Below, piece by piece: positions 28,057 through 45,369 of a stretch of DNA of 64,000 bases. The stretch's first letter is position 1; each line of letters starts with the position of its first letter. Origin of the DNA: Thermoanaerobaculia bacterium (GTDB taxonomy: Bacteria; Acidobacteriota; Thermoanaerobaculia; Multivoradales; JAHEKO01). The position numbers and the translations under genes were made by a program. Location: assembly GCA_049678185.1 (NCBI GenBank), contig JBAUDS010000444.1:7158-71157 (forward strand), in the 5' to 3' direction. The notes beneath the pieces were generated by a model that had not been told where the DNA came from, searched no databases, and saw only the letters and a program-made list of their open reading frames with translations.

Positions 28057-29282
28057 GCCCACCCTTTCGTGTCGTCATCACCGGCATCGGTGCGGTGAGC
28101 GCCTTTGGGTGGGGGGTGGACGCCCTGAGGCAGGGCCTGCAGTCCGGAAAGACCGCAATCACCGAGCCAAAATCGTTCAACACGAATGGACATCGCACTC
28201 GCGTTGCAGGGGAAGTCCCTGAAGCCCCGGCGGAAATAGAGGCTGCGTTCTCCGACTGGGATCGACTTTCTCGAGCCGACCAATTTGCCGTAGCGGCCGG
28301 CTTCGAGGCAGCTCGGCAGGCGCGGCTTGACGATCCGACGCAAGGCTGCGGTGTCTACTTCGGTAGCAGCACCGCCGGGATGCTCGAGTGCGAGGAGTAT
28401 GTGGCCCGTCTCTTGGGGGTACGAGCGGGACATCCACGACTGGGACAGCTGGCCTCGCAGCAGCTGAACGCGCCTGGGGACGCACTGGCCCGGGCGCTGG
28501 GCGTGACCGGGCCTGTCCAGAGTTTTTCCACTGCTTGTGCATCGGGTACCTTGGCGGTCGGTGCGGCTCGCGATGCCTTGCGCAACGGAGAAGTAGAGGC
28601 TGCCCTTACGGGAGGCGCAGACTCGCTCTGTCAACTCACCTACGGTGGCTTCAACTCCTTACGCGCGGTGGACAAGAGTCCCAGTCGCCCATTTCGAAAG
28701 GACCACTCCGGCTTGAGCTTGGGCGAAGGGGCGGGGGTGCTGGTCGTGGAAGACCTCGAGCATGCGGTCAGCCGAGGAGCTCGCCCTCTGGCCGAGGTCC
28801 TTGGGTTTGGGGCCAGCTGCGACGCCCACCATATGACCGCACCACAACCTGAAGGCGAGGGGGCTCTCGGCGCGATGAAGGCCGCACTCGCCGACGCCGG
28901 AGTCGAGCCGCGGCAGGTGGGCTTTTTGAATACCCATGGAACCGGCACACCGCACAACGACGAAGCCGAAGCTCGCGCCTGTGCACGCCTTTTGGAGGAG
29001 CGTCTTTCTCAGGTGCCGGTGTCGGCAACCAAGGCCGCCGTCGGTCATCTCCTGGGGGCGGCTGGGGCGCTCGAGGCCGTGGCGACCGTTCTCGCCCTGA
29101 TGGAGGGAGCCGTCCATCCGACCCCTGGTGCGGGAGAAATGGATGCAGAGCTGGGGCTCGATCTTGTCGTGGGCGAGGCGCGTGAGCTCGAGAACGGAGC
29201 TGTGGCGATCTCCACCAACCTGGCCTTCGGGGGCGCCAACGCAGCTCTGGTGCTGCGGGCGTGGAGTGGAGAGACCGCGTGA
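28053..29282 (+). CDS. beta-ketoacyl-ACP synthase (KS-alpha / FabF-like)
   Basis: The active-site Cys is in STACASG, and both His residues are present in HMTAP and NTHGTGTPHND. An ATGA overlap joins it to the ACP. Confidence 0.9.
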   Translation: MSPPFRVVITGIGAVSAFGWGVDALRQGLQSGKTAITEPKSFNTNGHRTRVAGEVPEAPAEIEAAFSDWDRLSRADQFAVAAGFEAARQARLDDPTQGCGVYFGSSTAGMLECEEYVARLLGVRAGHPRLGQLASQQLNAPGDALARALGVTGPVQSFSTACASGTLAVGAARDALRNGEVEAALTGGADSLCQLTYGGFNSLRAVDKSPSRPFRKDHSGLSLGEGAGVLVVEDLEHAVSRGARPLAEVLGFGASCDAHHMTAPQPEGEGALGAMKAALADAGVEPRQVGFLNTHGTGTPHNDEAEARACARLLEERLSQVPVSATKAAVGHLLGAAGALEAVATVLALMEGAVHPTPGAGEMDAELGLDLVVGEARELENGAVAISTNLAFGGANAALVLRAWSGETA

Positions 29283-30511
29283 CCCAGGCTCAGGCGGCGG
29301 TCGTCACCGGCCTCGGAGTAGTCGAAGGCAGTGGCTGGGGTATGGAGGCAGCGGCCGCGAGCTTTGCCGCGCCTGACCCCCAGCCGGTAGAGGTGGATCG
29401 CTCGGCTGGCTTTCATCGAGGAAGCCGAGCACACTGTGCTTTGCTCGTTGATCGAGCTCCACGGCGTGATTGGTTGTCCCCAATGGCGGCTCGGCGGATG
29501 AGCCCAGCATCACAGTTTGCTGTTTGTGCCGCCAAGATGGCGGTCGAAGAGGCCGGGCTGCAGCCGGAAGACATTGCGGGGAGAACGGCAGTCGTACTGG
29601 CTACTACGTATGGCGCCGTCGACACCACCGAAGGCATTCTGCGCCAGATCTTCCTCGACGGGCCGAAGACGATCTCACCCGCTCTTTTTACAGAATCTGT
29701 AGCCAATGCCCCGGCCGCGCACATCGCCATTGCCCTGGGAGCACGAGGACTCAACCTCACTGTGACCCAACACCAAGCGAGTGTGGCTGTAGCGTTGAGC
29801 CGCGCCAAGTTCGAGTTGGCCGCAGGCCGCGCGGATCGTGTGCTGGTGGGTGCGGTAGACGAGATAACTCCGATGCTGCATGCGATCCTGGACAGGTTCA
29901 AAGCCCTGGCGGTGCCGGACCCAGATGGAGCCGAAAGGGCACGTCCCTTCGATCGACGGAGAACCGGCTGGCTGGCGGCAGAGGGCGCCGTGGTAGCTCT
30001 CCTGGAGCGTGAAAGCGATGCGCGGCAAAGAGGAGCCCGGGTTCTGGCCCGCCTCTTGGGAGCGGGGAGTGCTTTCGATCCTCAGGCGCCCAGAACCGGT
30101 TGGGGAAAGTCACCGGGAATCCTGGCTGATTCTCTCCGCGAATATCTGGCTCGCGAGCGGTGTGAGATCGAGATGGTAAACAGGATAGTCACCGCTGCAG
30201 GTGGCCATCCGGCGGCCGATCGCCTGGAAGGGCAGCTCATCCGCGAGGTGTGGGGCGAGGCCGAGCTTCCCCCGGTGCTGGCTCCGACCGCGGTTTCGGG
30301 TGCGTACGGAGGATCTCTTCTCTCCGCTGCCATCCTTGCTGCCGGCAACCGGGAGTTCGGGCCTACTCCAGGGTTTGCTGAACCCGACACCGATATAGGC
30401 GTGGTCCCTCACGACGGAAGAGAGCTGTTGCCGGCATCGCACATACTTCTTACCGCCTGCGCGGCAGGAGGGGCAGCCGGTTGGGCGCTGTTCGAGGCCC
30501 CCGAGTCATGA
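29279..30511 (+). CDS. KS-beta / chain-length-factor-like ketosynthase paralog (active-site Cys replaced by Gln)
   Basis: It has the KS fold, but the catalytic position reads TVTQHQASVA, with Q in place of C as in type II PKS CLFs. A GTG overlaps the KS stop as GTGA. The ATG at 29261 is an alternative start. Confidence 0.75.
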   Translation: MTQAQAAVVTGLGVVEGSGWGMEAAAASFAAPDPQPVEVDRSAGFHRGSRAHCALLVDRAPRRDWLSPMAARRMSPASQFAVCAAKMAVEEAGLQPEDIAGRTAVVLATTYGAVDTTEGILRQIFLDGPKTISPALFTESVANAPAAHIAIALGARGLNLTVTQHQASVAVALSRAKFELAAGRADRVLVGAVDEITPMLHAILDRFKALAVPDPDGAERARPFDRRRTGWLAAEGAVVALLERESDARQRGARVLARLLGAGSAFDPQAPRTGWGKSPGILADSLREYLARERCEIEMVNRIVTAAGGHPAADRLEGQLIREVWGEAELPPVLAPTAVSGAYGGSLLSAAILAAGNREFGPTPGFAEPDTDIGVVPHDGRELLPASHILLTACAAGGAAGWALFEAPES

Positions 30512-31206
30512 GCGACACAGAGTCGGTGGCGGCAGCGATACCGGCCTACAATGCGGCTCCTTTTGTAGGCGACGTCGTCCGCCGCACCCTGGCGCAGATT
30601 GGTGAAGTAGTCGTGGTGGATGATGGTTCTGCGGACGAAACCGCAAGTCGCGCCCGGGAAGCAGGTGCAGAAGTTCTGGCGCATGATTTCAATCGGGGAA
30701 AGGGGGCGGCGCTGAGAACAGCGTTCGCATATCTGGCGGAACGTGACTTTGACGCGGTGTTGACTTTGGATGCGGATGGCCAGCATCTTCCAGAGGAGAT
30801 TCCTCGGCTCGAGCAGGCATGGCGGGAAGGTGCGGACCTCGTGTTGGGTACCCGGGACCACCTATTCGACGAGATGGTGTGGCTACGTCGAGCGAGCAAC
30901 ACCGTGTCTTCTGGCCTCATCTCCTTTGCCGCCGGGGTTCGCCTGGCCGACATCCAAACCGGTTTCCGCATCTATTCGAGATGTCTTCTGGAGGCCACGG
31001 GTTTTCCCGAGAATCGTTTCGAAGCCGAGAGCGCGGTTGTTGTGCGGGCGGCGCGGCGGGGTTTCAAGATTGCGACGGTTCCGGTGGAGTTGGGTTTTGC
31101 CGACGGCCGTTCCACAAGTCACTACAGACCGGTTATCGACAGCCTGCGAATCGCGGAGGCGGTCATCCGCGCCCGATTGGGCAGTATGAAGGGACAAGCA
31201 CAGTGA
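30508..31206 (+). CDS. glycosyltransferase family 2
   Basis: The N-terminus AIPAYNAAPFV ... VVVVDDGSADET carries the DxD region (DADGQH). An ATGA overlap joins it to the CLF. Confidence 0.8.
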   Translation: MSDTESVAAAIPAYNAAPFVGDVVRRTLAQIGEVVVVDDGSADETASRAREAGAEVLAHDFNRGKGAALRTAFAYLAERDFDAVLTLDADGQHLPEEIPRLEQAWREGADLVLGTRDHLFDEMVWLRRASNTVSSGLISFAAGVRLADIQTGFRIYSRCLLEATGFPENRFEAESAVVVRAARRGFKIATVPVELGFADGRSTSHYRPVIDSLRIAEAVIRARLGSMKGQAQ

Positions 31207-31928
31207 CGGAAGTCATCTTGGTAACGGGTGGAAGCAGAGGCATCGGGCGGGCGATAGTGGAGCGGCTCACCCGCTCCGGCCACACCGTTGGTTTTACCTG
31301 GCGTACAGATGAAACGCTCGCCAAAGAGGTCGAAGGCACAACCGGCGGCAAGGGAAAGGCTTTTCATCTGGACCTGACCGACCGGAAGCGGCCGGCACCT
31401 CTCGTGGCCGAGGTAGAGGCCGAGCTGGGACCATTGAGCGGTCTGGTCAACAACGCTGGTATTCAGCGCACGGAGCTGTTGGCGCTGACCTCGGATGCAT
31501 CGTGGGACGAGATCTCGGATGTGAATCTCGGCGGGGCCTTTCGCGTAACCCGTGAGGTATTACGCTCCATGGTGCCACGCCGACGGGGCTCGATCGTCAA
31601 CTTGGCCTCTCTTTCTGCCCTCCATGGTTTAGCGGGGCACGCTGCCTACGCGGCGTCGAAGGCCGGTCTTCTGGCCATGACCCGATGCCTGGCGAGAGAG
31701 ATGGGCGGTCGAGGCATTCGGGTAAACGCCGTTGTTCCCGGTTTTGTTGCCACCGAAATGACCAACGATCTGCCCAGTGAAGTCGTCTCTCGACTCCGCT
31801 CGGGCGAATGCCTGCCAGACGGGGTAACCGCCTCTGCGGTGGCCGAGGTTGTCGCTTTCCTCCTCTCGGAAGCGGCAGCGGCCGTCACCGGACAGGCGCT
31901 GCCGGTAGACGCGGGCACTTCAGCCTGA
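31203..31928 (+). CDS. 3-oxoacyl-ACP reductase (SDR, FabG-like)
   Basis: It has the TGGSRGIG cofactor motif, NNAG, and a catalytic S ... YAASK triad. A GTG start overlaps the GT2 stop as GTGA, giving a 241-aa product. Confidence 0.85.
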   Translation: MTEVILVTGGSRGIGRAIVERLTRSGHTVGFTWRTDETLAKEVEGTTGGKGKAFHLDLTDRKRPAPLVAEVEAELGPLSGLVNNAGIQRTELLALTSDASWDEISDVNLGGAFRVTREVLRSMVPRRRGSIVNLASLSALHGLAGHAAYAASKAGLLAMTRCLAREMGGRGIRVNAVVPGFVATEMTNDLPSEVVSRLRSGECLPDGVTASAVAEVVAFLLSEAAAAVTGQALPVDAGTSA

Positions 31929-31935
31929 GCCGCCC

Positions 31936-34395
31936 ATGGGAGTGTTGGCACGGATAGTGGCGCGGCACCCAAGAACCGTGGTGGCGGTTGCCCTGGTGCT
32001 GTGGGCGTTGGCCCTTATACCTGCTTCGCAGCTTCGGCTCCGCTTCGAGCTGGAATCTCTGCTACCCGGTAACTCACCGGCTGCAGCCGCCTACGGCGAA
32101 TATTTGCGTCTCTTCGGCGGGGTGAGGCGGGTCTTTGTGATCCTGCAGGCGCCCGAGGACACGGAAGGCGTTAGCTCAGCCCTGCTGACAGAAGCTGGAG
32201 ACCGGCTGGCTGAGCTGCTGGAGGAAAGTGGCGAGGTGTCGTCCGCCCGAGCTGGAATTAGCGACGAGGATCAGCGTGAATTCCTGACCAACGTTGTTCA
32301 ACGGGCTCCGTTGCTCGTTCCTGGAGACGATTGGCTCGAGCGGGTGGTCGCGCACCTCGACCCGGAGGCCATTCACGACAGGGTGCTGCAGATCCGCGCC
32401 TCATTGCTGATGCCCGGCGGTGGCACGACGGCCCGACTCGCTGTACACGATCCGCTGGGCTTCGCCGCAGAATTGCCTCTATTGCAGGAGCTTCCCTCTG
32501 GCATTCCTGTAGATCCCGTCACCTTGGGTTTTGTCTCTCCCGACGGTCGAAGCGCGTTGGTGGTAGCCGAGCCGTCGGCAGCGGAGTTGGATGCAGTGGC
32601 CGGGCAGCGACTGCAAAAGGCCATTGAGGAAGCGGCTGCAACGATTCGCTTGGAACTCGAGGAGGATCTGGTAGTGCGTGCGGTAGGCGGTCCCCTCTAC
32701 GCGGCACACGACCAGCAGGTCATCCGTTCCGATATGGAGCGGACGCTGGCGTACACGGCTCTTCTCTGTGGAGGATTGCTGGTGGCCGTTTTTGGGGGCC
32801 CCGCGATTCCCGTCGCCGGCTTGGTGGCACTCGCCGCAGCCCTGAGCTGGCTTGCCGCCGGCGTAGCGCTGACCGCCGGCGGTGTCACGGCGGTGGCCGT
32901 CGGTTTTTCGGCCGTTCTGGTGGGCTTGGGTCTGGATACAGCCATCCACGGTGGTGCCGCCTTGCGTCGGCGGCAGCTGGAGGCCACCTCGAGCGCAGAA
33001 GCCCTGGAAATGGCCTTTGATGACGTCGCCCGGCCGGTGGTTGCCGCGGCTGTTACCACTGCCGCGGCCTTTGGCGTGCTCATCGCTTCGAATCTGCCAC
33101 CTCTGCGGGAAGTTGGCGGAGTGGTGGCGGGAGGCATGCTAACCGTGGTGGTTTCGACCGCGACTTTGGGCGCCGGGTTGGCACTTCTGCTGTCGCGCAA
33201 ACCCAAGACCCCAGGATGGGCGTGGACCGTGCTTGGTCGTGCAGTGGACGCCATCGTCGAGACCGCCAGCCGTTGGCCCCGTGTTGTTTTGGCCAGCGCC
33301 TTGGTGCTTACTGCCGTAACTCTCCCGGCTGCTTTCAAGCTCGAGATTCGACCGGATCTCACCGGTCTGCGGCCCTTGGATCACCCTGTTCTCGAAGCCG
33401 AACGGGCTCTGCGTGAGTTCTTTGGCGTAGGAGAGGATGCCGCCACTGTCTTGGTGCGAGGTGATGATCTGGATGGGGCCCTGACCCAGGCGCGCGCGGT
33501 GATTGGCGTGCTCGAGGACTCAGGGACAGGTGTTACCGTCGTTTCACCGGTCGGTCGTATCATCGGTCCCGACGAGGCGGCCGGCCGGCTCGAGGCTCTT
33601 CAAGCTCTGCCACTGACAGAGGCAGTTGCTAGATTCCAGTCCGAGGTCCGTTCCGCCGGGCTCAACCCCGCGGTTTTCTCGCCGGGGCTGGACGCTCTGA
33701 GGGAGTTGGCCGACGGCAGAAGTCCAGGTGGAACATTGCCCGCCGCAGACGAGCAGCTCAGGGTACAACCCTCGGGCGAGGTGTGGGTGGCGATGTTGCT
33801 CCGCCAATCGGTGGACCCATGGCCTGACGGGCCGCCGATCGAAATTAGATCCGCAGTGACCCAGGCAGCTCCATCGGCGTTGATCGCGTCGGTGCCATGG
33901 GTCGGTGAGGATCTTCGCCGCGTGGCTGCCAAAGACCTCCGCAGGCTTTCCGGGCTGTCTCTGATCATCGTGGTGGGCGTAGTGTTGGCGTCATTTCGGG
34001 GCCGACCTGCCCCGTCACTGCTTGCCCTGGGTCCAGTATTCTTTGGCACCGCATGGTGTTTGGGGTTGTGGTCTCTCATGGGTCGTCCTTTGGATCTGGT
34101 CGGTCTGGCCGTGCTGCCGGTGATGTTGGGTATCGGGATTGACGACGGCCTGCATGCGGTCCATGGTGCGAAACCCGGGGGTGTCGAAAGGATCGCGGGC
34201 TCTGTCCGCCGCTCCGGACCCGCCATGACCCTCACCACCATCACGACCTGCATTGGATTCAGCAGTCTGGCGCTGTCGCGCCTGCCGGCGCTGCAGGCGG
34301 TAGCCCTTCTAGTACCCATCGGGGTGGGATCGTGTCTGGTGGCGACACTGGTGCTGATGCCCGCCACAGCCTCTCTTTTTCACGGGCGAGAATGA
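31936..34395 (+). CDS. MMPL-family (RND superfamily) exporter
   Basis: The 819-aa protein has two repeated 6-TM bundles with large periplasmic loops, which is typical of the MMPL-like exporters found in aryl-polyene clusters. Confidence 0.8.
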   Translation: MGVLARIVARHPRTVVAVALVLWALALIPASQLRLRFELESLLPGNSPAAAAYGEYLRLFGGVRRVFVILQAPEDTEGVSSALLTEAGDRLAELLEESGEVSSARAGISDEDQREFLTNVVQRAPLLVPGDDWLERVVAHLDPEAIHDRVLQIRASLLMPGGGTTARLAVHDPLGFAAELPLLQELPSGIPVDPVTLGFVSPDGRSALVVAEPSAAELDAVAGQRLQKAIEEAAATIRLELEEDLVVRAVGGPLYAAHDQQVIRSDMERTLAYTALLCGGLLVAVFGGPAIPVAGLVALAAALSWLAAGVALTAGGVTAVAVGFSAVLVGLGLDTAIHGGAALRRRQLEATSSAEALEMAFDDVARPVVAAAVTTAAAFGVLIASNLPPLREVGGVVAGGMLTVVVSTATLGAGLALLLSRKPKTPGWAWTVLGRAVDAIVETASRWPRVVLASALVLTAVTLPAAFKLEIRPDLTGLRPLDHPVLEAERALREFFGVGEDAATVLVRGDDLDGALTQARAVIGVLEDSGTGVTVVSPVGRIIGPDEAAGRLEALQALPLTEAVARFQSEVRSAGLNPAVFSPGLDALRELADGRSPGGTLPAADEQLRVQPSGEVWVAMLLRQSVDPWPDGPPIEIRSAVTQAAPSALIASVPWVGEDLRRVAAKDLRRLSGLSLIIVVGVVLASFRGRPAPSLLALGPVFFGTAWCLGLWSLMGRPLDLVGLAVLPVMLGIGIDDGLHAVHGAKPGGVERIAGSVRRSGPAMTLTTITTCIGFSSLALSRLPALQAVALLVPIGVGSCLVATLVLMPATASLFHGRE

Positions 34396-35363
34396 CAGAC
34401 GACGCAAACCCGGCGCCACCGCATGCTCCAGACACCAGAGGCCGCCTCCGCAGGCTTCTCGGCGCCTACCACGTGACGGGTGTCTTCTGGTACCGATTCC
34501 ATCATTGGGGCATGTCTATTCTCCCCGAGTGGGGGGTTCATGTAGCCATCTCCGTTTTTACGCCGTTTTTCTTCATTTCGCTGCGGCGGATCCGCAAGGC
34601 CATCGCCAGCAATCTCGAACCTGTCCTGGGACCTTGTGGCTGGTGGCAACGTCAAGGTCGGATCTGGTGGACCATGTGGACCTATGCGTGGTGTCTCTCC
34701 GAGCGGTACGAGTCGCTGAGTGGCAAAGGGTCAGCGCAGATCAGCGCGGACGGAGAGGACCGATGGCACGAGCTGATGGCCAGCGATCGGGGTCTTGTGT
34801 TCGTAACGGCCCATATCGGTCACTGGGAGATCGGCTCGCGGCTGGGATTGACTCGAGCTAATCGGCGCGTCCACGTCATACGTGAGGGGGAGGTGGACCC
34901 GAAAGCCCAGGAATTCATCCGCGAGCTCTTGGCTCGGGAGTCGGAAGCGAACTTTGAGATGCACTTCGCGGACGAGTCGGATCCGTCTCTGGGTGCCCAT
35001 CTCCTGGGGGCGCTGAGGGATGGCGACGTGGTCGCACTGCAGGGAGACCGTCCACGAGCTGGAAGCCGCTCCTGGACCGGCAGCCTGTGTGGCCGGCCGA
35101 TGGAGCTGCCGGTAGGACCGGCCGCTATCGCGCGTGCGGCCCAAGTACCGCTCGTGCCGGTGTTTATTTTCCGAGATGGCCGTCACCGGTCTCGGGTGTT
35201 CATACGAGCCCCGATTTCGGTCCCGTCCACCGACGATAGAACCGCCGACATCGCGAGTGCGCTGCAGCGGGTTGCCGACGAAGTGGAGTGGGCCATCCGC
35301 CATGAGCCACACCAATGGTTCTGCTTCCGGGAGCTATGGCCGGAGGCCGATGACCTTGCCTGA
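34392..35363 (+). CDS. lysophospholipid acyltransferase (LpxL/HtrB-like LPLAT)
   Basis: The AHIGHWE motif matches the HxxxxE acyltransferase motif. An ATGA overlap joins it to the MMPL stop. Confidence 0.75.
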   Translation: MTDDANPAPPHAPDTRGRLRRLLGAYHVTGVFWYRFHHWGMSILPEWGVHVAISVFTPFFFISLRRIRKAIASNLEPVLGPCGWWQRQGRIWWTMWTYAWCLSERYESLSGKGSAQISADGEDRWHELMASDRGLVFVTAHIGHWEIGSRLGLTRANRRVHVIREGEVDPKAQEFIRELLARESEANFEMHFADESDPSLGAHLLGALRDGDVVALQGDRPRAGSRSWTGSLCGRPMELPVGPAAIARAAQVPLVPVFIFRDGRHRSRVFIRAPISVPSTDDRTADIASALQRVADEVEWAIRHEPHQWFCFRELWPEADDLA

Positions 35364-35406
35364 CGGACTTTTGCCGAAGAGTCCGCTGTCCTTCAATTCA
35401 CCAGTG

Positions 35407-35850
35407 TCAAGCAGGAGTTGAGAGGCTAAGACGACCCTCAGCAGCCTCTTCCCCATCGAGAGTAACGGTAAACGAGAATGTTGCCAGATCTCCCATCTGG
35501 GCCTCGAGACGAACCCGAGCCTCGAGGGCCTGGTCCACGCAAACCTCGGGTACAAACAGCCGAGTCTCACGCAGACCGACCAGAAAGCCGAGCTCCGGGT
35601 GCGGCAGGTCCTCGGTTTCCGTGGCTTTCAGAAGACCGATGAGAACTCCTGCCGCCTGCGCCGCGAAGTCCACCACCAATAGTGCCGATACTCGCCCCTC
35701 GGCAACATAGGGGTGGCTGTGTGGGATACGGCCAGCAAGGGTGGCCGTCCTGCCCACGTGCTCGATCACTTCGGTCACCAGCAGCGCCGGAGGGCGGTGC
35801 GGTAGGAGATCTATCAGAGCGTCGGGGTCGCCTTGCCCACGCGGTCGCAC
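35407..35850 (-). CDS. hotdog-fold 3-hydroxyacyl-ACP dehydratase (FabA/FabZ-like)
   Basis: The LPHRPPALLVTEV N-terminal block and a His in the HSHPYV region mark the hotdog fold. The start is uncertain. The maximal ORF would overlap the downstream lipoprotein gene by 180 nt, so the in-frame GTG at 35850 was used, although it has no clear RBS. Confidence 0.5.
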   Translation of the reverse strand: MRPRGQGDPDALIDLLPHRPPALLVTEVIEHVGRTATLAGRIPHSHPYVAEGRVSALLVVDFAAQAAGVLIGLLKATETEDLPHPELGFLVGLRETRLFVPEVCVDQALEARVRLEAQMGDLATFSFTVTLDGEEAAEGRLSLSTPA

Positions 35851-35867
35851 CAGAGGATCAGCTACGA

Positions 35868-36284
35868 CTAGTCTTCGGGTTTGGCAGAGTCTTCGGGATA
35901 TTCGAAAACGTAGCTCATCATCTCTTCGAAGGTCCCGTCGGCATTTGGCAACGCCCGCTGTGCCGCGGTGAAGAGGAACTTGACCTTGACCTTTTCGTGC
36001 TTGACATTGGCTTTCAGCCGGAGAGTCAGTTCGACCTTCGTACCGCTGCAATCCACATCCAGGACGGTGAATGTAGCCCCCTCGGGAATCTCCTCGTTGT
36101 CCCTTTCCAGCTTGACGATTCCTCCCGGTGCTACTTTCGTGTCGTAAAGGGGTTTCTTGGCGATAAAGATCCTGCCCTCCAACTTGGTAGCCAACTCGGG
36201 GCAGTCGGAGTCAGCGGCGGCCAGCGAGGGGAAGGCAGTCAGCAGCACTGCGAGAGCCAACACGGTGAGAAACAAGGATTTCAT
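35868..36284 (-). CDS. small secreted protein or lipoprotein of unknown function
   Basis: It has a signal peptide (MKSLFLTVLALAVLLTAFPSLAAADSDC) and a 138-aa product. Confidence 0.5.
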   Translation of the reverse strand: MKSLFLTVLALAVLLTAFPSLAAADSDCPELATKLEGRIFIAKKPLYDTKVAPGGIVKLERDNEEIPEGATFTVLDVDCSGTKVELTLRLKANVKHEKVKVKFLFTAAQRALPNADGTFEEMMSYVFEYPEDSAKPED

Positions 36285-36321
36285 GGTTACACCTCCTGAG
36301 TAGGTCATCCGGCTCGAGGGT

Positions 36322-37281
36322 TCAATGCCGGGCTGTCGAAAGGTCCGCCCAGCCCTCGATCTCCACCAGCAGGCCATCACGGCAGAGGCCTACCCTGAGG
36401 AGCTCGATTTCTTCGAGTCCGGAAAAAGCAGTGCGTACGAGATCTTCAATTGTACTCTTGTCCCTCTCCTGCGGGTAATAGACCCGCAGCTGGCGGAACC
36501 TTCCGAGCAGAGCCTGCCGCTCACACTCCAGGTGGACTTCTGGTAGATCGACTATCAGACCGGAGGCGACCACCGACGCGAGATTGTGGAATGTTTCCTC
36601 AATCTGGGCCTCGAGGTCGCCGAGGTGAAGTGTGGTCTCGCCTCGAATGGAAGCCGTACCGCCGACCAGCAGTCGAGAGGGAGTGCCGGCTGTCTCTTCC
36701 AGCCGTGTGGCCCGGGAGAAACATGGCGGTAACGGACCATAGGCCCCGGAATAGCGGTAGGGAGCAATCTGACGGGGGTTGACTACCGGTAATCCTGGTT
36801 GGTCCGCGGCTAGCGCGTAGACGATCAGGTCGTCACCTTTGGTGCCGATTCCCGATGCGCAGGCAACCCTCTGGTCGAAGTCTCCACGCTCTCCGTACCA
36901 CCGGGAGTAGGCATTGAATCGCCCGGCGTTGAATGCCATGTAGCGATGCGGCAGGCTGCTGAGCGGCTCGAGAATCCCGGGGATGAGATTCCAGACGCGC
37001 ACGAGATGACGATCTCCCGCCGCGGTCAGCACCAATTCGTAGGCCTGTTCCACCTTCCGTTCAAGACCCTCTTGGTCGAGATATCGAGCCGCTTGGAGTC
37101 GAACGGCCACGAGCGTGTATCCCTCGCCCGTCCGGCGGCTCAAGAAGAAACCCTCGGGAGCTTCCAGCCCCAGCTCCGGACCGGGACCCACCAAATCGAG
37201 AACCCAGGGTTGGGGCTGACAGATCGACGGCTCAGCGGTTGAAGGCGGAGGGATGACTCGGGCAGCGAAGTGCTGAGGCAT
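36322..37281 (-). CDS. putative chorismatase, FkbO/Hyg5/XanB2-like (N-terminal domain plus RidA-fold C-terminus)
   Basis: The assignment is tentative. The protein is 319 aa, its C-terminal third (LLVGGTASIRGE ... LHLGDLEAQIEETFHNLASVV) resembles the RidA/YjgF fold, and the gene sits within a halogenase / aryl-polyene-like cluster. Confidence 0.35.
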   Translation of the reverse strand: MPQHFAARVIPPPSTAEPSICQPQPWVLDLVGPGPELGLEAPEGFFLSRRTGEGYTLVAVRLQAARYLDQEGLERKVEQAYELVLTAAGDRHLVRVWNLIPGILEPLSSLPHRYMAFNAGRFNAYSRWYGERGDFDQRVACASGIGTKGDDLIVYALAADQPGLPVVNPRQIAPYRYSGAYGPLPPCFSRATRLEETAGTPSRLLVGGTASIRGETTLHLGDLEAQIEETFHNLASVVASGLIVDLPEVHLECERQALLGRFRQLRVYYPQERDKSTIEDLVRTAFSGLEEIELLRVGLCRDGLLVEIEGWADLSTARH

Positions 37282-37366
37282 GCAGGATCGACACTACGCG
37301 CAAACTTCAGCGAGCGTCAATTAGATAGGCCACCAGTATTGGAGAACCAATCCGTTCGACTCCTCG

Positions 37367-38791
37367 TCAACGGGTTGCAGACTCGAGGGGAAATCTGCCT
37401 GGCTGTGTGGAAGATATGTCGTTGTCGAGCGGCTCGATTACCTCGGTAAACTTGAAATTCTCCTGGGCCAGCGCCTCGAGGACGGGGCGGTAGATGGCGG
37501 GCTCGGTGGGTATGTGGCTGCCGGTCAGATCGATGTCGCCATCCAGAACGAGTCGGGCGGCAAGGGCGCTGGGCAGACCCACTGCCCGCGCCATGGCGGT
37601 GTTGCCTCCGCGCTCACCATATTGCACGAGCGTGGCGACGATCTTCTCGCGTCGGATCCCCGCCGTTTCTTGATCCTCTCCATCCGTCGGGTAGTGAGCT
37701 GTGAGCTCGTGGTGAATGATGACCAGGTCCCTGCCGTCGGCCGGCAGCTGCAGCTTGGTGTCCAGGAGATGCACCAGGGCGTCGGTCGCCGACGCCCCCT
37801 CGATGCCGATGGGCTCTTCGGAGAACAAGCCCAACCAGCGCAAGTTCTCCATCACGGACCCCTGGCGATCAAGCCCCAGAAATCGAGCCGTTCTCTCTTC
37901 GACTGTCGCTCCGCGCACCTCTTCCGGCAGGAACATCTCTACCAGCTCGGCAAAGCTGCGTTCGGCGAGGTGAGGAATCGGGATCTGCTCACCGGTAAGG
38001 CCCAACCGAACGACCTGGTGCCAGGTTTCGCACCACCCGGGAAAGCGCAGTTTGCCTCGAATCAGGGTCTCCACTCGAGCCAGACCAAACTGTGACCGAT
38101 AGACGAGCGAGTCCCGGTTGGGGTAGGCCTCCATGGTGCCGACCCCCGGCACCTCCACCGGCCAGGTCTGGGTGAATACCCGCGACTTGGGCACCGCTCG
38201 GAGCTGTCCGTGGCGAAGGTAGTGCGCACCTCGATCGCCGGACGTGACCACGCGGCGGGGGCTACGGGTGATGGCATAGTGCAGCGGGTTGGTGAACGAA
38301 TCGGGAGCCGGGACACCACTGCCATAGGACTCGTAGCTCTCGACAATGCCACCGGCACTGTGTACCCGGTCGATGAGCGACATCCCAGCCATGTGGTCGA
38401 TTCCGGGATCGAGTCCCATCTCGGTGAGAAGCAGCACCCCCTGCTGGCGAGCTTTGCTCGATAGGGCTTTGATCTTCGGAGAACTGTAGGAAGTGGAGAT
38501 CATGTGCCGCCCCTGGCGGACGCACTCGTGGGCGACGAGGCTTGTCAGCGAGGGGGGCAAGAGGTTGACCACCAGATCGGCGCCATCGATGATCGCCTCC
38601 AGCCGAGCTTCGTCCCGGGCGTCGATGGCGATAGCCTCCCCTCGCGGGTGCCCGTTGACCCGCGAGGCGGCCACGTCGGGATCGAGATCGCCGACGGTGA
38701 TGATCCAGCCGTCGTCGTTGGCGTGATCCAGCAGATAGCGAATGAGATATGGCGCGCTCTGGCCCGCGCCGAGCACAAGGATTCTCTTCAT
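37367..38791 (-). CDS. saccharopine dehydrogenase family NAD(P)-binding oxidoreductase
   Basis: A Rossmann-fold N-terminus reads ILVLGAGQSA. The protein is 474 aa with the two-domain organisation of the saccharopine dehydrogenase family. Confidence 0.75.
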   Translation of the reverse strand: MKRILVLGAGQSAPYLIRYLLDHANDDGWIITVGDLDPDVAASRVNGHPRGEAIAIDARDEARLEAIIDGADLVVNLLPPSLTSLVAHECVRQGRHMISTSYSSPKIKALSSKARQQGVLLLTEMGLDPGIDHMAGMSLIDRVHSAGGIVESYESYGSGVPAPDSFTNPLHYAITRSPRRVVTSGDRGAHYLRHGQLRAVPKSRVFTQTWPVEVPGVGTMEAYPNRDSLVYRSQFGLARVETLIRGKLRFPGWCETWHQVVRLGLTGEQIPIPHLAERSFAELVEMFLPEEVRGATVEERTARFLGLDRQGSVMENLRWLGLFSEEPIGIEGASATDALVHLLDTKLQLPADGRDLVIIHHELTAHYPTDGEDQETAGIRREKIVATLVQYGERGGNTAMARAVGLPSALAARLVLDGDIDLTGSHIPTEPAIYRPVLEALAQENFKFTEVIEPLDNDISSTQPGRFPLESATR

Positions 38792-38832
38792 GGCTCTGCG
38801 GCCAAAAGTGATTGAAAACGGGGCAGACGCGC

Positions 38833-38864
38833 TGGTAACCCCAAAAGACCCCTCCTGGCGTCTA
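38833..38864 (+). promoter_or_regulatory. candidate ECF-type promoter (GGTAACC - 18 nt - CGTCTA) upstream of the ECF sigma gene
   Basis: An AAC-containing -35-like element and a CGTC -10-like element are spaced as in ECF promoters. They lie about 75 nt upstream of the sigma start. The call rests on pattern only. Confidence 0.25.
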
Positions 38865-38935
38865 TCTTACGCCCATCGCGGCAAAAAATCGAAATTCGGG
38901 ACAACGGCTAACTCCTGGGCAGGAGGCCTCGTCTA

Positions 38936-41610: not shown

Positions 41611-42690
41611 ATGAAACTGACAGCCGCACTGATCATCGCAGCCACCATTGCTGCCGTTCCTTGTCTATCCCAGGCAGCCGAGATCCAAAATGCGAAAACG
41701 GAATCGATGCAGGCCACCGGCGATCTCCAAAAGACGGTAGAGCGCCTCGCCCGGGAAGCGGACGAGCCCACCTGGGTGGTCTACTCGGCGCCGATGGTCG
41801 AGGGCGATCGTTTGCTCTGCTGCAACGAGTCCCATACGTGGAGGGCGGGGGCCAAGAGCTGTGAGCTGGAAGGCCGGGAGCGCAATTTCGTCATGTCGAA
41901 CAGACACGGTTTGGTCCCCGCGAGCATGGCGTCGCGTGACCTTCTGGTCTTCCTGCGGCTCGCGAGCGATCGGGTTTCCGACCTACGGGTCTATTCCGAG
42001 TCCTGCCCGGTCGATGCCGGTGGCACCCGGGTGGTGTGGCTGGAGGGGGTGTCGCCCGAGTCGAGCGCCAAGATGCTGCACCGGTTCGCAGCGGGCGACC
42101 GCCTGCTGGCCGGCGATGAGGATCTGGCCGATGAAGCCCTCACGGCCCTCGCCCTCCACGACGCCGAGGGTACCGATGCCGCGGTCGAGGATCTCGCTGG
42201 ACCGAGCCACCCCGAGGAGTTGCGTGAGGAGGCCATCTTCTGGTTGGGCCACATGCGGGGTCGTGCGGGCTATTTGGCCCTCGACCGGCTGCTCGAGACA
42301 GAGAAGGACCCGGAGATCAAGGAGGAGATCGCCTTCGCCCTGACCCAGAGCCCGGTGCCGGAGGCGATCGACAGGCTGGAGAAGCTCGCCAAGAGCGACC
42401 CCAGCCCCGATGTGCGCGGCGAGGCCCTCTTCTGGCTGGCCCAGAGCGGCAGCGCCGGGGCCGGCGCGACGATCGTCGAGGCTATCCAACAGGACCCGGA
42501 AGAGGACGTGCGGGAGGAGGCGATCTTTGCCCTCAACCAGCTCCCCGACAACCAAGGGACCGAGCTGCTGCTGGAAATTGTCCGCGACGGCTCGCGGCCT
42601 GACGAGATTCGCCAAGAAGCGCTGTTCTGGCTCGTCCAATCGGACGACGACCGGGCCCTCGACCTGGTGTCCGATATCTTGCGGCAATAG
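41611..42690 (+). CDS. exported HEAT-repeat protein (second paralog)
   Basis: A signal peptide (LIIAATIAAVPCLSQA) precedes HEAT/PBS-lyase repeats (EEAIFWLGHMRG, GEALFWLAQSG, EEAIFALNQL, QEALFWLVQSD). Confidence 0.7.
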   Translation: MKLTAALIIAATIAAVPCLSQAAEIQNAKTESMQATGDLQKTVERLAREADEPTWVVYSAPMVEGDRLLCCNESHTWRAGAKSCELEGRERNFVMSNRHGLVPASMASRDLLVFLRLASDRVSDLRVYSESCPVDAGGTRVVWLEGVSPESSAKMLHRFAAGDRLLAGDEDLADEALTALALHDAEGTDAAVEDLAGPSHPEELREEAIFWLGHMRGRAGYLALDRLLETEKDPEIKEEIAFALTQSPVPEAIDRLEKLAKSDPSPDVRGEALFWLAQSGSAGAGATIVEAIQQDPEEDVREEAIFALNQLPDNQGTELLLEIVRDGSRPDEIRQEALFWLVQSDDDRALDLVSDILRQ

Positions 42691-42708
42691 ACCGAAATGT
42701 GGGGGTGG

Positions 42709-42790
42709 TTACTCCACCTCCACCACCATCTCGATCTCGACCGCGATACTCATTGGCAGCGATGCCATACCCACCGCGGCGCAGGAGGCT
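42709..42790 (-). pseudogene. orphan 3'-terminal fragment of a ridA-like gene (diverged duplicate of 44767..44850)
   Basis: Over about 65 nt it is similar to the 3' end of the intact ridA gene. The first 38 nt are identical and the remainder about 80% identical. It encodes ...ASLPMSIAVEIEMVVEVE plus a stop, and the listed ORF 42709..43038 is non-RidA upstream of that. Confidence 0.6.
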
Positions 42791-42970
42791 TTCGCCAACG
42801 CCAGCAACGAGGCCGACTGAGACGTATCGGTGTTCATGGGCGGGGCCGGTCTTCCCACCTTCAGGTTGCCACGAAAGGAGAAGGCGAAGACCCGGAGGCG
42901 GCCAATCGAGATTGGCGAGACCGCGAAGAGGTGGGACCAGAGTGGCGAGCGATCATCGAGGCGGAGGAGT

Positions 42971-44500
42971 TCATCGCTCGGGCCGCGCACTTGCGTATGC
43001 CTCTTGGACTGCCTGCTCCATTTGGGCGATCTCGTCATCTGACAGAAAGTCGAAATGACTGCTGCGCTTCAGAGCGGAAATTCGCCCGTTGTTCTGAAGG
43101 CAGAACCGAATGAACAGGTCGATCTTCCGGTCGGGTATGTCCAGAATGTCTTGAATGGCCTTCTTGGTCTCCTCGTACATTGCCAGAAACGACAATTCCT
43201 CGACGAGTTCCGTCTCGATGGTGTGCTCAATGAAGCGGTACAGCGCCTCGGCCTGCGGCGTCATGTCGATGTAGGCGTACCATCGAGCCGTATCGTTCTG
43301 GACGGTCATGCGCCCGTCTTCGTCGAGCAAATATTCGACCAATGGCATGAGCGGGCGCGAGAACGCCTCCAGCGAGGCGTCGTACGCGGACGGATTTTTC
43401 AGCATCGAAGCCGAAACTGGAAACATGATGCCTTCAGGCGTGAAGCCCTGGCGCGCAAGAATGTTGTGGATCAAGAAGCGATGGATGCGCCCATTGCCAT
43501 CTTCGAAGGGATGAAGGAAGACGAACCCGTAGGCCAGCGTTGCCGCGTGTACAACGGGGGGAACGCCGCCTTTATCCATTCGCTCATGCGTGGCGATCAG
43601 GCCGCTCATGAGCGACTCTAGATCTTCTGGCTTCGGGCAAGCGAAATGGACCTTCTCCCGTTGCCATGCCACGCTTTCGCCGACATAGTTCTGGAACGTA
43701 CGATAGTCGGAATCGCGGAATCTCGGATCGACGATGCGATTCTGAAGATCGATCAAATGCGCCTTCTCACAGAAGTCCTCTTTCTCCGCAAGCTGAAGCA
43801 TTGCGATGAATCGTTCGGTTCGAGTCGAGCTCGGTTTGACATGCTCGATCTCGAAGGACGATTTCGTCTCTTTTGTGTACAGGTAGCTCAGGGCCCGCTT
43901 CAGCAGTTCCGGCGAAAAGGCCGACACGACCTGCTTGCAGCGTTCGGTGAGATCGGCCTCTTGGAAGCCGCGAAGGACGTCGGTGCGCCGTATGGTTGGA
44001 CAAAATCGGCTATCGCCTAGCAGATTGTCGTTGATCCTCTGGCGACGGATCTGGCGAGCCGGTGTGACCGTGTAGTATTGATCCGAATCCAGCAGGTCGA
44101 CGTAGTTGCCCTGCTTCACATCATCCAACGGGAGAGTCGAGCCCGTTAGAAACTCATACAGGAACCACAGCCGTCGGGCGTATTTCCCGGTTGGTTTGGA
44201 CTCAACGTAGGCCAGGATTTCTTCCTGCAGGACTACCTCAAACAGGCTGGCGAGGATTGCGAGATTCGTGCCGTCGTACTTGAGTGCGAATTCGAGATGC
44301 GCCCCGAGAGAGTCCCCCGGCCAGTACTTGAATGGATAAACCTCCTCGGTTACGCCGGAGGAGGTTTCGATTCGGTGGGAACCGCCGGTGGCCACGCAGG
44401 ACCGGTGCCAGTTCGGGATAACTTCCAGGCTATATCTGGCAATCAGCGCCTCATACCCTGCTGGCTTCTGTCCCGTGCCTTCCTGATCGTGTTCATCCAT
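42971..44500 (-). CDS. Fic family protein (509 aa, COG3177-type)
   Basis: It has the canonical Fic motif HPFEDGNGRIHR. The architecture is an N-terminal helical domain with a C-terminal winged helix. Confidence 0.9.
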   Translation of the reverse strand: MDEHDQEGTGQKPAGYEALIARYSLEVIPNWHRSCVATGGSHRIETSSGVTEEVYPFKYWPGDSLGAHLEFALKYDGTNLAILASLFEVVLQEEILAYVESKPTGKYARRLWFLYEFLTGSTLPLDDVKQGNYVDLLDSDQYYTVTPARQIRRQRINDNLLGDSRFCPTIRRTDVLRGFQEADLTERCKQVVSAFSPELLKRALSYLYTKETKSSFEIEHVKPSSTRTERFIAMLQLAEKEDFCEKAHLIDLQNRIVDPRFRDSDYRTFQNYVGESVAWQREKVHFACPKPEDLESLMSGLIATHERMDKGGVPPVVHAATLAYGFVFLHPFEDGNGRIHRFLIHNILARQGFTPEGIMFPVSASMLKNPSAYDASLEAFSRPLMPLVEYLLDEDGRMTVQNDTARWYAYIDMTPQAEALYRFIEHTIETELVEELSFLAMYEETKKAIQDILDIPDRKIDLFIRFCLQNNGRISALKRSSHFDFLSDDEIAQMEQAVQEAYASARPER

Positions 44501-44581
44501 GGTGTTTCCAGAAGAACGATTACGTCCACAGAATTATGATTATATTTTGGCAAAAGTCAAGAAAAATGATTACGAAAGGGG

Positions 44582-44607
44582 TTTTCTAGGACCACACTCC
44601 TAGAAAA
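44582..44607. promoter_or_regulatory. perfect 10-bp inverted repeat TTTTCTAGGA-N6-TCCTAGAAAA in the fic leader
   Basis: The palindrome lies about 85-110 nt upstream of the fic start, inside the AT-rich foreign segment. Three ATGAT(T/C)A direct repeats lie nearby. Confidence 0.4.
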
Positions 44608-44766
44608 GCCGCGATAGGACCGGCAATACGAGTACAGTTGGCCACTTTTCAAGAAATATGATCACAGCCTATCCAGCCACCTCCCAATGGGTAGTGATCA
44701 GGGAAAGGAAGTTCGGCGATACGAACTTCCTTTCATTAACTTCCTTGATGACTTCCTGGTCATGTC

Positions 44767-45369
44767 CTACTCCACCTCCACCACCATCTCGATCTCGACC
44801 GCGATGCCCATGGGCAGCGATACCATCCCGACGGCGGCGCGGGCGTGCTTGCCCTGGTCGCCGAAGATCGACACCAGTAGATCCGAGCAGCCGTTGATGA
44901 CCTTGGGCTGGTCGGTAAAGGCGGGATCCGAGTTCACCATGCCGTGTACCTTGACGATGCGCTTCACCCGGCTGAGCTCCCCGATCTCGGCCTTGAGCGA
45001 GGCCAGCAGCGCGATGGCGGTAAGACGCGCGGCCTCGTAACCCTCTTCGAGTGTCAGGTCCTGACCCAGCCTGCCAGTGACATAGGTGCCGTCGGCCTTC
45101 AATGGCCCATGACCAGCCAGAAAGACTAGATTGCGGGTCGTCACCGCCCGTACATAGTTGGCCACCGGTGGTGGTGGAGTGGGGAGCTCGATACCGAGCG
45201 CCGCCAAACGTTTCTCTGGCGTGTCGGCGGCACTTTTGTCCGACGCGGTGTCTTGGGCGTTCGCCATCGGTGCAACGACGAGCCCGGCCACCAGGGCCAG
45301 CGCCACCAACAAGACGCCGATCTTTCTATCGGACCGGCTCTCCTCCAAGTTATCCAGACTGCAGCTCAT
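44767..45369 (-). CDS. Sec-exported RidA/YjgF family protein
   Basis: A signal peptide (IGVLLVALALVAGLVVAPMANA) precedes the RidA fold, and the C-terminus ARAAVGMVSLPMGIAVEIEMVVEVE is characteristic. A strong AGGGAGGA RBS lies before the internal ATG. The 3' end of this gene is the insertion site of the fic islet. Confidence 0.8.
   Translation of the reverse strand: MSCSLDNLEESRSDRKIGVLLVALALVAGLVVAPMANAQDTASDKSAADTPEKRLAALGIELPTPPPPVANYVRAVTTRNLVFLAGHGPLKADGTYVTGRLGQDLTLEEGYEAARLTAIALLASLKAEIGELSRVKRIVKVHGMVNSDPAFTDQPKVINGCSDLLVSIFGDQGKHARAAVGMVSLPMGIAVEIEMVVEVE

What the first reader, a model, noticed from the sequence alone, without database searches (positions are those of the whole stretch)
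42705..44850. Low-GC fic islet inserted at the 3' end of ridA, bounded by a diverged duplicate of the ridA terminus
The last 65 nt or so of the intact ridA gene (44767..44850, ...VSLPMGIAVEIEMVVEVE*) recur at 42709..42790. The first 38 nt are identical (CTACTCCACCTCCACCACCATCTCGATCTCGACCGCGAT) and the next 27 nt are about 80% identical, so the duplicate encodes the variant ...ASLPMSIAVEIEMVVEVE*. The roughly 2 kb between the two copies has much lower GC than the surrounding genome (about 68% GC). It contains a 509-aa Fic (HPFEDGNGR) gene and a 265-nt AT-rich leader. This is the structure left by a site-specific element that targets the 3' end of a conserved gene and brings its own replacement terminus, yet no integrase, transposase or tRNA is present.
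Basis: seen in the sequence. Interest (0 to 1): 0.78.

Follow-up and report, generated by a model that had tools for sequence, protein, structure and literature searches.

The report
Fic defence islet with recombination scars
A single horizontally acquired Fic gene (a candidate anti-phage gene) sits in a variable spot between two converging core genes, and the duplicated gene end beside it looks like a scar of recombination between related genomes, not the footprint of a self-mobile site-specific element.

Summary
Window 42710-42785 repeats 44768-44843 (76 nt, 38 identical then 30/38). The 2 kb between them is the lowest-GC stretch of the window (0.55 against 0.63, not 0.68). It holds one intact 509-aa Fic gene with its own promoter. 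A related MAG (L001) has the empty site: Rid stop, 14-nt spacer, HEAT2 stop.

The site-specific-element reading is only partly supported.
- The 38-nt "core" is as conserved in every Rid ortholog examined, so it is not an att signature.
- Copy A is the last 76 nt of a second, diverged Rid allele. Its inner edge is fused through a 7-nt microhomology (GCGGCGC) to a scrap of a DinB gene.
- The other islet end carries another DinB scrap.
- In sister lineages (L085, L127, L181) the same fic (dS about 0.10 against 0.30-0.38 for flanking genes) lies beside an intact DinB plus a DinB 3' remnant.
- I found no integrase, transposase or tRNA between about 18.7 and 54.5 kb of the window.
- Other cargo in the same interval leaves no second Rid terminus.

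Best reading: a non-autonomous cargo islet (PADLOC candidate PDC-S24) moved between related Thermoanaerobaculia by homologous plus illegitimate recombination. An integrase acting in trans is not excluded.

The parts
41611..42690 (+). HEAT2, the last gene of the sigma / anti-sigma / HEAT-repeat operon. It is the native right-hand neighbour of the insertion site and converges on Rid.
   Evidence: Pfam HEAT_2. Same synteny in L001, L127 and L165-171.
42691..42708 (.). Native spacer between the HEAT2 stop and the Rid stop (GTGGGGGTGG motif).
   Evidence: Aligns with the 14-nt spacer of the empty site in L001 and with the spacer of L127 and L085.
42699..42723 (.). Hairpin GUGGGGGUGG-UUACU-CCACCUCCAC, built from the spacer and the last 12 nt of Rid. 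Inferred to be a bidirectional terminator-like element for the two converging genes. Copy A keeps it for HEAT2.
   Evidence: Present in the minimum-free-energy fold of the window and of L001. Function is inferred, not shown.
42709..42785 (-). Copy A: stop codon plus the last 76 nt (24-25 codons) of a second, diverged Rid allele (...AAVGMASLPMSIAVEIEMVVEVE*).
   Evidence: Six of the 8 differences from copy B fall on the 11 of 38 sites that vary among orthologs (my binomial estimate P about 0.01).
42776..42782 (.). GCGGCGC, a 7-nt microhomology where the sequence switches from Rid-like (antisense) to DinB-like (sense).
   Evidence: Position-by-position comparison with six Rid orthologs and four DinB orthologs.
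42783..42824 (+). DinB scrap: codons about 97-106 (…EAFANASNEA) joined to the last codons, the stop and 4 nt downstream (D*, GACG). The join runs through the 8-nt repeat GACGAGGC, an internal deletion of DinB.
   Evidence: tblastn E = 0.003. DNA matches to L127 DinB of 27/30 and 18/18.
42825..42970 (.). 146 nt of unknown origin between the DinB stop and the fic stop. L085 and L127 have 12 nt here.
   Evidence: No DNA match in any fetched locus and no Rid-profile match.
42971..44500 (-). fic: an intact 509-aa Fic-domain protein, the cargo.
   Evidence: Pfam Fic E = 7e-15. PADLOC PDC-S24 E = 2.7e-188 over the full length. Fold matches are FICD and SoFic only. dN/dS 0.29 against L085.
44501..44577 (-). 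Conserved fic leader. It holds the promoter (TTGACT at 44560-44555, 16-nt spacer, CATAAT at 44538-44533) and three GTAATCRT repeats.
   Evidence: Promoter scan 10/12. DNA homology to dozens of unrelated fic loci stops 60-79 nt upstream of the ATG.
44578..44699 (-). Distal leader, shared only with the L085/L181 lineage. Includes the 13-bp palindrome 44579-44610.
44703..44734 (.). Perfect 13-bp hairpin starting 32 nt past the Rid stop, absent from L085 and L181. Inferred to replace the terminator that Rid lost.
   Evidence: Function is inferred.
44742..44762 (+). Second DinB scrap (…MTSWS, DinB codons 108-113). It is the start of the DinB 3' remnant that abuts the leader in L085 and L181.
   Evidence: tblastn hit. 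The 15-mer GACCAGGAAGTCATC is shared with L085, is unique in the window and has 0 expected by chance.
44767..44843 (-). Copy B: stop codon plus the last 76 nt of the intact Rid gene.
44767..45369 (-). Intact Rid/YjgF-family gene (200 aa with a signal peptide). It is the native left-hand neighbour of the insertion site.
   Evidence: Pfam PF14588 and PF01042. A GGAGGA ribosome-binding site precedes the ATG at 45369. Orthologs in L001, L002 and L175-180.

Best explanation
**What it is.** The 2-kb segment is a non-autonomous cargo islet. It consists of one promoter-plus-fic unit, a PADLOC PDC-S24 candidate anti-phage Fic AMP-transferase. It lies in a variable interval between the converging Rid and HEAT2 genes of a Thermoanaerobaculia bacterium.

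**How it most likely got there.** It was not placed by a recombinase of its own. A piece of a related genome was transferred in which fic already lay beside a DinB gene. That piece ran from inside DinB, through fic and its leader, into the DinB 3' remnant, and was linked to a Rid terminus. It was joined to this chromosome by homology in or upstream of the Rid 3' end on one side. On the other side it was joined by an illegitimate junction at a 7-nt microhomology, 76 nt before the resident Rid stop.

**What that left.** An intact Rid, the islet, and then the last 76 nt of a second Rid allele still attached to the native spacer. The topological route could be homology-facilitated illegitimate recombination of a linear fragment, or single-crossover integration of a circularised fragment. 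I cannot tell which.

**Why the remnant persists (inferred).** Together with the spacer it forms the hairpin that ends the HEAT2 operon. A new hairpin at 44703-44734 now follows Rid.

**Status of each step.**
- Shown: the insertion, the empty site, two Rid alleles, the microhomology junction, the DinB scraps, the younger age of fic, and no integrase found.
- Inferred: the recombination route, which Rid terminus is the foreign one, the terminator roles, and the defence function.
For: - Empty site in L001 with identical synteny.
- The islet is the lowest-GC segment of the window. Across 42 loci fic stays at 0.46-0.62 GC while the flanks range from 0.32 to 0.66.
- Fic homologs at 75-87% identity occur in many phyla and in unrelated contexts.
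- Synonymous divergence of fic between the window and L085 or L127 is 0.10, against 0.38 (HEAT1) and 0.30 (HEAT2) for the flanking genes.
- Copy A has the same similarity profile to copy B as true orthologs have, and its differences sit on ortholog-variable sites.
- The Rid/DinB junction lies at GCGGCGC.
- A DinB scrap lies at each islet end, matching the L085/L127/L181 arrangement of DinB, fic, leader, DinB remnant.
- The interval is variable in the clade: empty, DinB plus fic, five other genes, or other.
- No second Rid terminus occurs in any other Rid locus.
- The conserved fic unit has no defined ends.
- Neighbourhood gene calls show no integrase or transposase within about 10 kb either side, a Pfam scan of ten ORFs at 18.7-31.9 kb shows none, and the window has no tRNA.
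- Illegitimate recombination assisted by homology is a described route for replacing chromosomal segments (PMC2884548).
Against: - To my knowledge, the described products of homology-facilitated illegitimate recombination are insertion-deletions, not duplications. The duplication needs the illegitimate joint to fall inside the homologous anchor, or a circular intermediate.
- The donor arrangement (a Rid stop directly abutting the DinB remnant) was not found. The L127 contig ends inside fic.
- Several other fic loci also show a fic-only islet between an intact gene and a duplicate of that gene's 3' end: DinB in L085/L181, HNH in L120, and 17 nt of tRNA-Asn in L105/L107. This is the classic signature of integrase-mediated insertion and could mean a recombinase acts in trans.
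- The codon-position bias of the Rid differences alone is weak (5 of 9, P = 0.14).
- All ten sampled contigs of this species are identical, so no polymorphism shows the event in progress.
Confidence: 0.55

Rival explanations
1. The islet is a site-specific integrative element that lacks its own integrase, either a decayed island or a cis-mobilisable element. A tyrosine recombinase encoded elsewhere, or since lost, inserted it at the Rid 3' end. The element carried a replacement Rid terminus, and copy A is the displaced native end.
For: - The architecture fits: intact gene, cargo, then a displaced 3' remnant attached to native downstream DNA.
- The two termini are different functional alleles.
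- The same architecture recurs with fic at DinB (L085/L181), at HNH (L120, with 8 of 9 differences at third codon positions) and at tRNA-Asn with a 17-nt repeat (L105/L107).
Against: - No integrase was found between about 18.7 and 54.5 kb of the window.
- The flanking repeats at the four targets share no evident core by inspection.
- Most of the roughly 60-70 fic loci tested have no flanking direct repeat.
- The 38-nt identity is explained by gene conservation.
- The would-be arm of attP is a fragment of the previous neighbour gene, joined at a microhomology.
- The islet carries DNA from both sides of its previous DinB site, which precise excision would not give.
- fic has either orientation relative to the target gene.
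Confidence: 0.25
2. The repeat is a long target duplication made in one genome when a DNA fragment was captured at a staggered break or a stalled fork. Copy A has since decayed, except where selection for the HEAT2 terminator keeps it.
For: - Both islet ends are illegitimate joints.
- The outer part of copy A overlaps a conserved hairpin.
- Two of the differences (G to S, R to C) are unique to copy A and non-synonymous.
Against: - Six of the 8 differences fall on the 11 of 38 ortholog-variable sites, and four of them carry states seen in other orthologs (my estimate P about 0.01).
- The hairpin explains conservation of only about 15 of the 38 identical nt.
- In L120 the analogous repeat differs almost only at third codon positions (P = 0.001), which decay would not produce.
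Confidence: 0.08
3. fic and the duplicate are ancestral at this locus. The 'empty' sites are secondary deletions by recombination between the two Rid copies.
For: Recombination between copies A and B would regenerate exactly the L001 arrangement, so an empty site alone does not show the direction of the event.
Against: - Only one species, sampled as identical contigs, has the doubled terminus.
- fic is compositionally foreign and has about a third of the synonymous divergence of its flanks.
- The islet carries scraps of a DinB locus, so it is derived from another arrangement.
- Fic homologs are scattered over many phyla.
Confidence: 0.05

Closest known systems
Genomic islands integrated by tyrosine recombinases at the 3' end of tRNA, tmRNA or protein genes, with an attP that restores the gene end
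   Same: An intact target gene, foreign lower-GC cargo, and a direct repeat made of the gene's 3' end, with the displaced remnant attached to native downstream DNA.
   Different: No integrase. No att core shared with other loci. The identity block is no more than ortholog-level conservation. The inner repeat edge is a microhomology joint to a fragment of another gene. The cargo is a single gene.
Cis-mobilisable elements (CIMEs) and other integrase-less, att-flanked derivatives of integrative elements (named from my own knowledge)
   Same: Flanked by repeats and carrying no recombinase. Would depend on an enzyme supplied in trans.
   Different: No cognate integrase or parental element was identified, and there is no evidence of excision. 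The islet contains flanks of a previous, different insertion site.
Homology-facilitated illegitimate recombination, described in Acinetobacter, Pseudomonas stutzeri and Streptococcus pneumoniae (summarised in PMC2884548)
   Same: Homology on one side and a short GC-rich microhomology joint on the other. Foreign DNA comes from a related genome. No element-encoded enzymes are needed.
   Different: To my knowledge the described products are insertion-deletions. Here 76 nt of the anchor are duplicated. Competence or any other DNA-uptake route in this uncultured lineage is unknown.
Defence islets in core-genome hotspots that lack mobility genes (general concept, from my own knowledge)
   Same: A single candidate defence gene between conserved core genes, in an interval whose content varies between relatives.
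   Different: This case preserves readable junction scars: two Rid alleles and DinB scraps from the previous location.
PADLOC PDC-S24 and class II Fic proteins such as SoFic and FICD
   Same: Full-length match to the PDC-S24 model. Canonical HPFEDGNGRIHR motif. Fold matches FICD and SoFic.
   Different: It has an extra N-terminal domain of about 120 residues. The inhibitory-helix motif reads SSFEIEH and not (S/T)xxxE(G/N). No experimental evidence of defence or of a target.

Membership tests
Integrase-mediated island at a gene 3' end | A tyrosine or serine recombinase gene inside or next to the island | tested here: not met
   The islet holds only fic. Precomputed Pfam calls within about 10 kb either side, and my Pfam scan of ten ORFs at 18.7-31.9 kb, show no integrase or transposase.
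Integrase-mediated island at a gene 3' end | Direct repeats (attL and attR) made of the target's 3' end, with the target gene left intact | tested here: met
   76-nt repeat, with an intact Rid ORF ending in copy B.
Integrase-mediated island at a gene 3' end | The same attachment core recurs at other insertions of the element family | tested here: not met
   No other Rid locus among the fetched loci has a second terminus. Other fic loci are flanked by unrelated sequences or by none.
Integrase-mediated island at a gene 3' end | Precise excision to a circular form and a restored empty site | not testable with these tools
   This needs read-level data. All ten contigs of this species carry the islet.
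Product of homology-facilitated illegitimate recombination | A short microhomology at the non-homologous joint | tested here: met
   GCGGCGC at 42776-42782 is shared by the Rid and DinB proxies.
Product of homology-facilitated illegitimate recombination | A homologous anchor shared by donor and recipient, next to the foreign DNA | tested here: inconclusive
   Two diverged Rid alleles are juxtaposed. The donor genome and the upstream crossover point were not found.
Fic/DOC family (PF02661) | Pfam score above the gathering threshold and the HxFx(D/E)GNGRxxR motif | tested here: met
   56 bits against a cut-off of 24. The motif HPFEDGNGRIHR is invariant in 25 homologs.
PADLOC PDC-S24 (candidate defence system) | Full-length match to the PDC-S24 model | tested here: met
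   E = 2.7e-188, residues 11-504 against profile positions 4-491 of 497.
PADLOC PDC-S24 (candidate defence system) | Protection against phage | not testable with these tools
   No paper in the searchable library mentions PDC-S24.
RidA proper (TIGR00004) | Score above the curated cut-off | tested here: not met
   28.9 bits against 106.25. It does pass PF14588 YjgF_endoribonc (81 against 35 bits), so it is a Rid-superfamily member and not an archetypal RidA.

The most novel reading that the evidence does not exclude
Promoter-plus-fic cassettes of this family may be minimal integrase-less mobile units. On this reading they travel with a short replacement 3' end of the gene they land behind (Rid, DinB, HNH and tRNA-Asn seen here), and recombinases supplied in trans insert them, so that a single defence gene behaves as a satellite-like integrative cassette.
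Probability: 0.15. Interest if true: 0.65.

Novelty: new member of a known kind. Interest (0 to 1): 0.35.

Why it matters
This locus gives a readable record of how a lone candidate defence gene moves between related genomes without carrying mobility genes. The junctions preserve two alleles of the target gene's end, a microhomology joint, and scraps of the gene's previous neighbour.

It also carries a caution. A long identical 'core' inside a flanking repeat need not be an attachment site if that part of the gene is equally conserved among orthologs.

If the recurrence of 3'-end duplicates around fic at four different targets reflects a recombinase acting in trans, it would define a very small class of mobilisable defence cassettes.

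Tried and rejected
- **Longer Rid pseudogene in copy A.** A Rid-family profile built from 120 homologs matches only the last 24 codons. The apparent extension is a DinB scrap on the other strand.
- **42786-42970 as a decayed DinB 3' half.** I first read it that way from the MAFFT alignment. Exact comparison shows a short DinB scrap with an internal deletion through GACGAGGC, followed by 146 nt of unknown origin.
- **tRNA or integrase in the window.** No tRNA was found, and I found no integrase in the region examined.
- **Within-species empty site.** All ten contigs that encode this exact Rid carry an identical islet.
- **Left side of the L127-type locus.** I could not recover it: the contigs are too short, and the L181 Fic sits in a cluster headed by a fragment.
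- **Recombinase-like domain in Fic.** The AlphaFold2 model (pLDDT 64) matches only FICD and SoFic-type structures.
- **Defined element ends.** Pairwise homology among about 85 fic loci stops 60-79 nt upstream of the ATG and 20-40 nt before the stop codon. No terminal repeats were seen.
- **Literature.** No paper mentions PDC-S24. The original paper on homology-facilitated illegitimate recombination is not held in the library.
Full report
**Observation**

The repeat is real. Window 42710-42785 and 44768-44843 form a 76-nt direct repeat at 89% identity. The first 38 nt are identical and the next 38 match at 30 positions. The 38-mer occurs exactly twice in 64 kb, against 0 expected. Each copy ends in a stop codon on the minus strand, but the codons differ: TAA at 42709-42711 and TAG at 44767-44769.

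Between the copies lies one intact gene, a 509-aa Fic protein (42971-44500, minus strand; Pfam PF02661; motif HPFEDGNGRIHR). A 266-nt leader of 43.6% GC precedes it. The islet is 55.3% GC in a window of 62.9%, not 68%, and it contains the lowest-GC 1.5-kb stretch of the window.

The 'ridA' gene is a Rid/YjgF-superfamily gene with a signal peptide. It passes PF14588 but is far below the RidA TIGR00004 cut-off.

**Organism and population**

The Fic protein is 100% identical to one annotated in Thermoanaerobaculia MAGs. Seven MAG contigs and three short Logan contigs carry the same 2.3 kb without a single difference. All ten contigs that encode this exact Rid protein carry the islet.

**Empty site and a variable interval**

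A related MAG (L001; Rid 77% identical) has the same sigma, anti-sigma, HEAT1, HEAT2 operon converging on Rid, with only 14 nt between the two stop codons. The spacer beside copy A (GTGGGGGTGG) is that native spacer.

The interval varies in other relatives:
- DinB plus fic in L085, L127 and L181.
- Five unrelated genes in L177-179.
- Other sequence in L002, L175 and L176.

Only the window's species has a second Rid terminus.

**The 38-nt 'core' is not diagnostic**

The last 38 nt of the window's Rid are 36-38 of 38 identical to those of orthologs L001, L002, L175, L176 and L177. The preceding 38 nt are 30-33 of 38 identical. Copy A (38 of 38, then 30 of 38) has exactly the profile of an ortholog from another species.

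Six of the eight differences between copy A and copy B in the variable 38-nt block fall on the 11 of 38 sites that vary among orthologs. Four of them carry states seen in other orthologs. My binomial estimate for this is P of about 0.01. Copy A is therefore the last 76 nt of a second Rid allele that was once functional. It is not a decayed self-copy, and the sharp change in identity needs no crossover core.

**What lies at the islet's edges**

- *Inner edge of copy A.* At 42776-42782 (GCGGCGC) the sequence switches from Rid (antisense) to DinB (sense).
- *First DinB scrap.* The following 42 nt are DinB codons about 97-106 joined to the last codons, the stop and 4 nt downstream. The join runs through the 8-nt repeat GACGAGGC. 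The matches to the DinB gene of L127 are 27/30 and 18/18.
- *Second DinB scrap.* At the other end, directly against the Rid stop, 44742-44762 encodes MTSWS, DinB codons 108-113. The 15-mer GACCAGGAAGTCATC is unique in the window and identical to the edge of the DinB remnant in L085.

**Sister lineages**

L085, L181 and L127 are relatives whose flanking genes are about 87-90% identical to the window's. They carry a fic that is 94-96% identical at the DNA level, placed next to the same HEAT2 spacer. Their arrangement is: spacer, intact DinB, 12 nt, fic (convergent), leader, a diverged DinB 3' remnant starting at codon 108, and then (in L181) a converging kinase gene.

The window's islet is therefore a slice of such a locus that overshoots the fic unit on both sides. 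Precise site-specific excision would not produce that.

**Age**

Synonymous divergence of fic between the window and L085 or L127 is 0.10. For HEAT1 it is 0.38 and for HEAT2 0.30. Fic was shared between these lineages well after they split.

**Fic as a travelling gene**

More than 7000 homologs were found, and the best 120 are 75-87% identical. They come from Phycisphaerales, Gemmatimonadota, Gammaproteobacteria, Planctomycetota and others.

The unit conserved at the DNA level across unrelated contexts is the ORF plus 60-79 nt upstream. That stretch holds a TTGACT-16-CATAAT promoter and three GTAATCRT repeats. No terminal repeats or fixed ends are seen.

Fic GC stays at 0.46-0.62 while flanking GC ranges from 0.32 to 0.66. 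The protein matches the PADLOC candidate defence model PDC-S24 over its full length (E = 2.7e-188). Its model resembles only FICD and SoFic.

**Mechanism**

The best-supported account is recombination between related chromosomes. The incoming piece was joined by homology in or upstream of the Rid terminus. Its other end was joined by an illegitimate junction at a 7-nt GC-rich microhomology, 76 nt inside the resident Rid gene. This leaves an intact Rid, the cargo, and the second Rid allele's last 76 nt still joined to the native spacer.

Illegitimate recombination assisted by homology is a described route (PMC2884548). A single crossover of a circularised fragment gives the same product, and I cannot choose between the two routes.

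Two inferences follow:
- The hairpin formed by the spacer and the last 12 nt of Rid (42699-42723), conserved in L001, may be why the remnant persists.
- The perfect 13-bp hairpin at 44703-44734, absent from L085 and L181, may now terminate Rid.

**What keeps the integrase reading alive**

Among 60-70 fic loci with usable flanks, a minority show the same architecture with other targets:
- DinB in L085 and L181.
- An HNH gene in L120: an 87-nt repeat in which 8 of 9 differences are at third codon positions (P = 0.001).
- A 17-nt repeat of the tRNA-Asn 3' end around a fic-only 2.1-kb islet in L105 and L107.

This is the classic look of integrase-mediated insertion. However, by inspection the four targets share no evident core sequence, fic has either orientation relative to the target, most loci have no such repeat, and I saw no integrase. 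I give this reading 0.25. I give 0.15 to the more novel version, a family of minimal trans-mobilised cassettes.

**Verdict**

The finding is a real horizontally acquired single-gene islet with a real empty site, but the structure is better read as recombination scars in a hotspot than as the footprint of a site-specific element. It is a new member of a known kind, of moderate interest.

Noticed in passing
window 22170-38866: A lipid or aryl-polyene-like biosynthetic cluster. It encodes an FAD halogenase, a UbiE-type methyltransferase, a polysaccharide deacetylase, an AMP-ligase, two ketosynthases and a ketoreductase, and then MMPL, an LpxL-type acyltransferase, ApeP-like and FkbO-like genes. 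GC is slightly low at 22.9-24 kb.
   Followed up: partly
window 42699-42723; L001 about 1090-1115: A 10-bp hairpin built from the intergenic spacer and the last 12 nt of Rid, conserved in the empty-site relative. It looks like a shared terminator for the two converging genes. The last 33-38 nt of Rid are almost invariant, even at synonymous sites, in the six orthologs closest to the window (L034 is more divergent).
   Followed up: partly
window 44703-44750: A perfect 13-bp hairpin in which the motif AGGAAGT occurs three times direct and once inverted. It looks like a local palindromic expansion of the neighbouring DinB scrap. It is absent from the otherwise homologous leader of L085 and L181.
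   Followed up: partly
window 44501-44577: Three GTAATCRT repeats bracket the fic promoter. This 75-nt block is conserved at the DNA level with fic in dozens of unrelated genomes and may be an operator for autoregulation.
   Followed up: no
window 42709-42837 (minus strand): The 42-aa 'gene' called in the public MAGs is a chimera of an antisense DinB scrap and the Rid tail, and not a real gene.
   Followed up: yes
window 42825-42970: 146 nt between the DinB stop and the fic stop have no detectable relative in any fetched locus. L085 and L127 have 12 nt here.
   Followed up: partly
L081-L084 (for example L081 57-5045): An 87%-identical Fic lies beside an IS481-type transposase, a PIN toxin, Phd/ParE and HTH genes, a typical toxin-antitoxin and defence patch.
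   Followed up: no
L105 2127-4298; L107: A fic-only 2.1-kb islet lies between 17-nt direct repeats made of the tRNA-Asn 3' end plus 8 nt of flank, with no integrase on the contig.
   Followed up: partly
L120 2209-2295 and 4301-4387: Fic lies between an HNH endonuclease gene and an 87-nt duplicate of that gene's 3' end. The duplicate has its own different C-terminal tail and stop codon, and 8 of 9 differences are at third codon positions.
   Followed up: partly
L085 2520-2660; L181: In this sister lineage the 359-aa HEAT2 gene is reduced to a stub of about 50 nt ahead of the spacer. The ABC-transporter genes lie next to the sigma-factor operon, so the genome is rearranged relative to the window.
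   Followed up: no
L184-L187: DinB orthologs (86% identical) in other genomes are followed by a converging PIN/VapB pair, so the DNA downstream of DinB is itself a landing place for small accessory modules.
   Followed up: no
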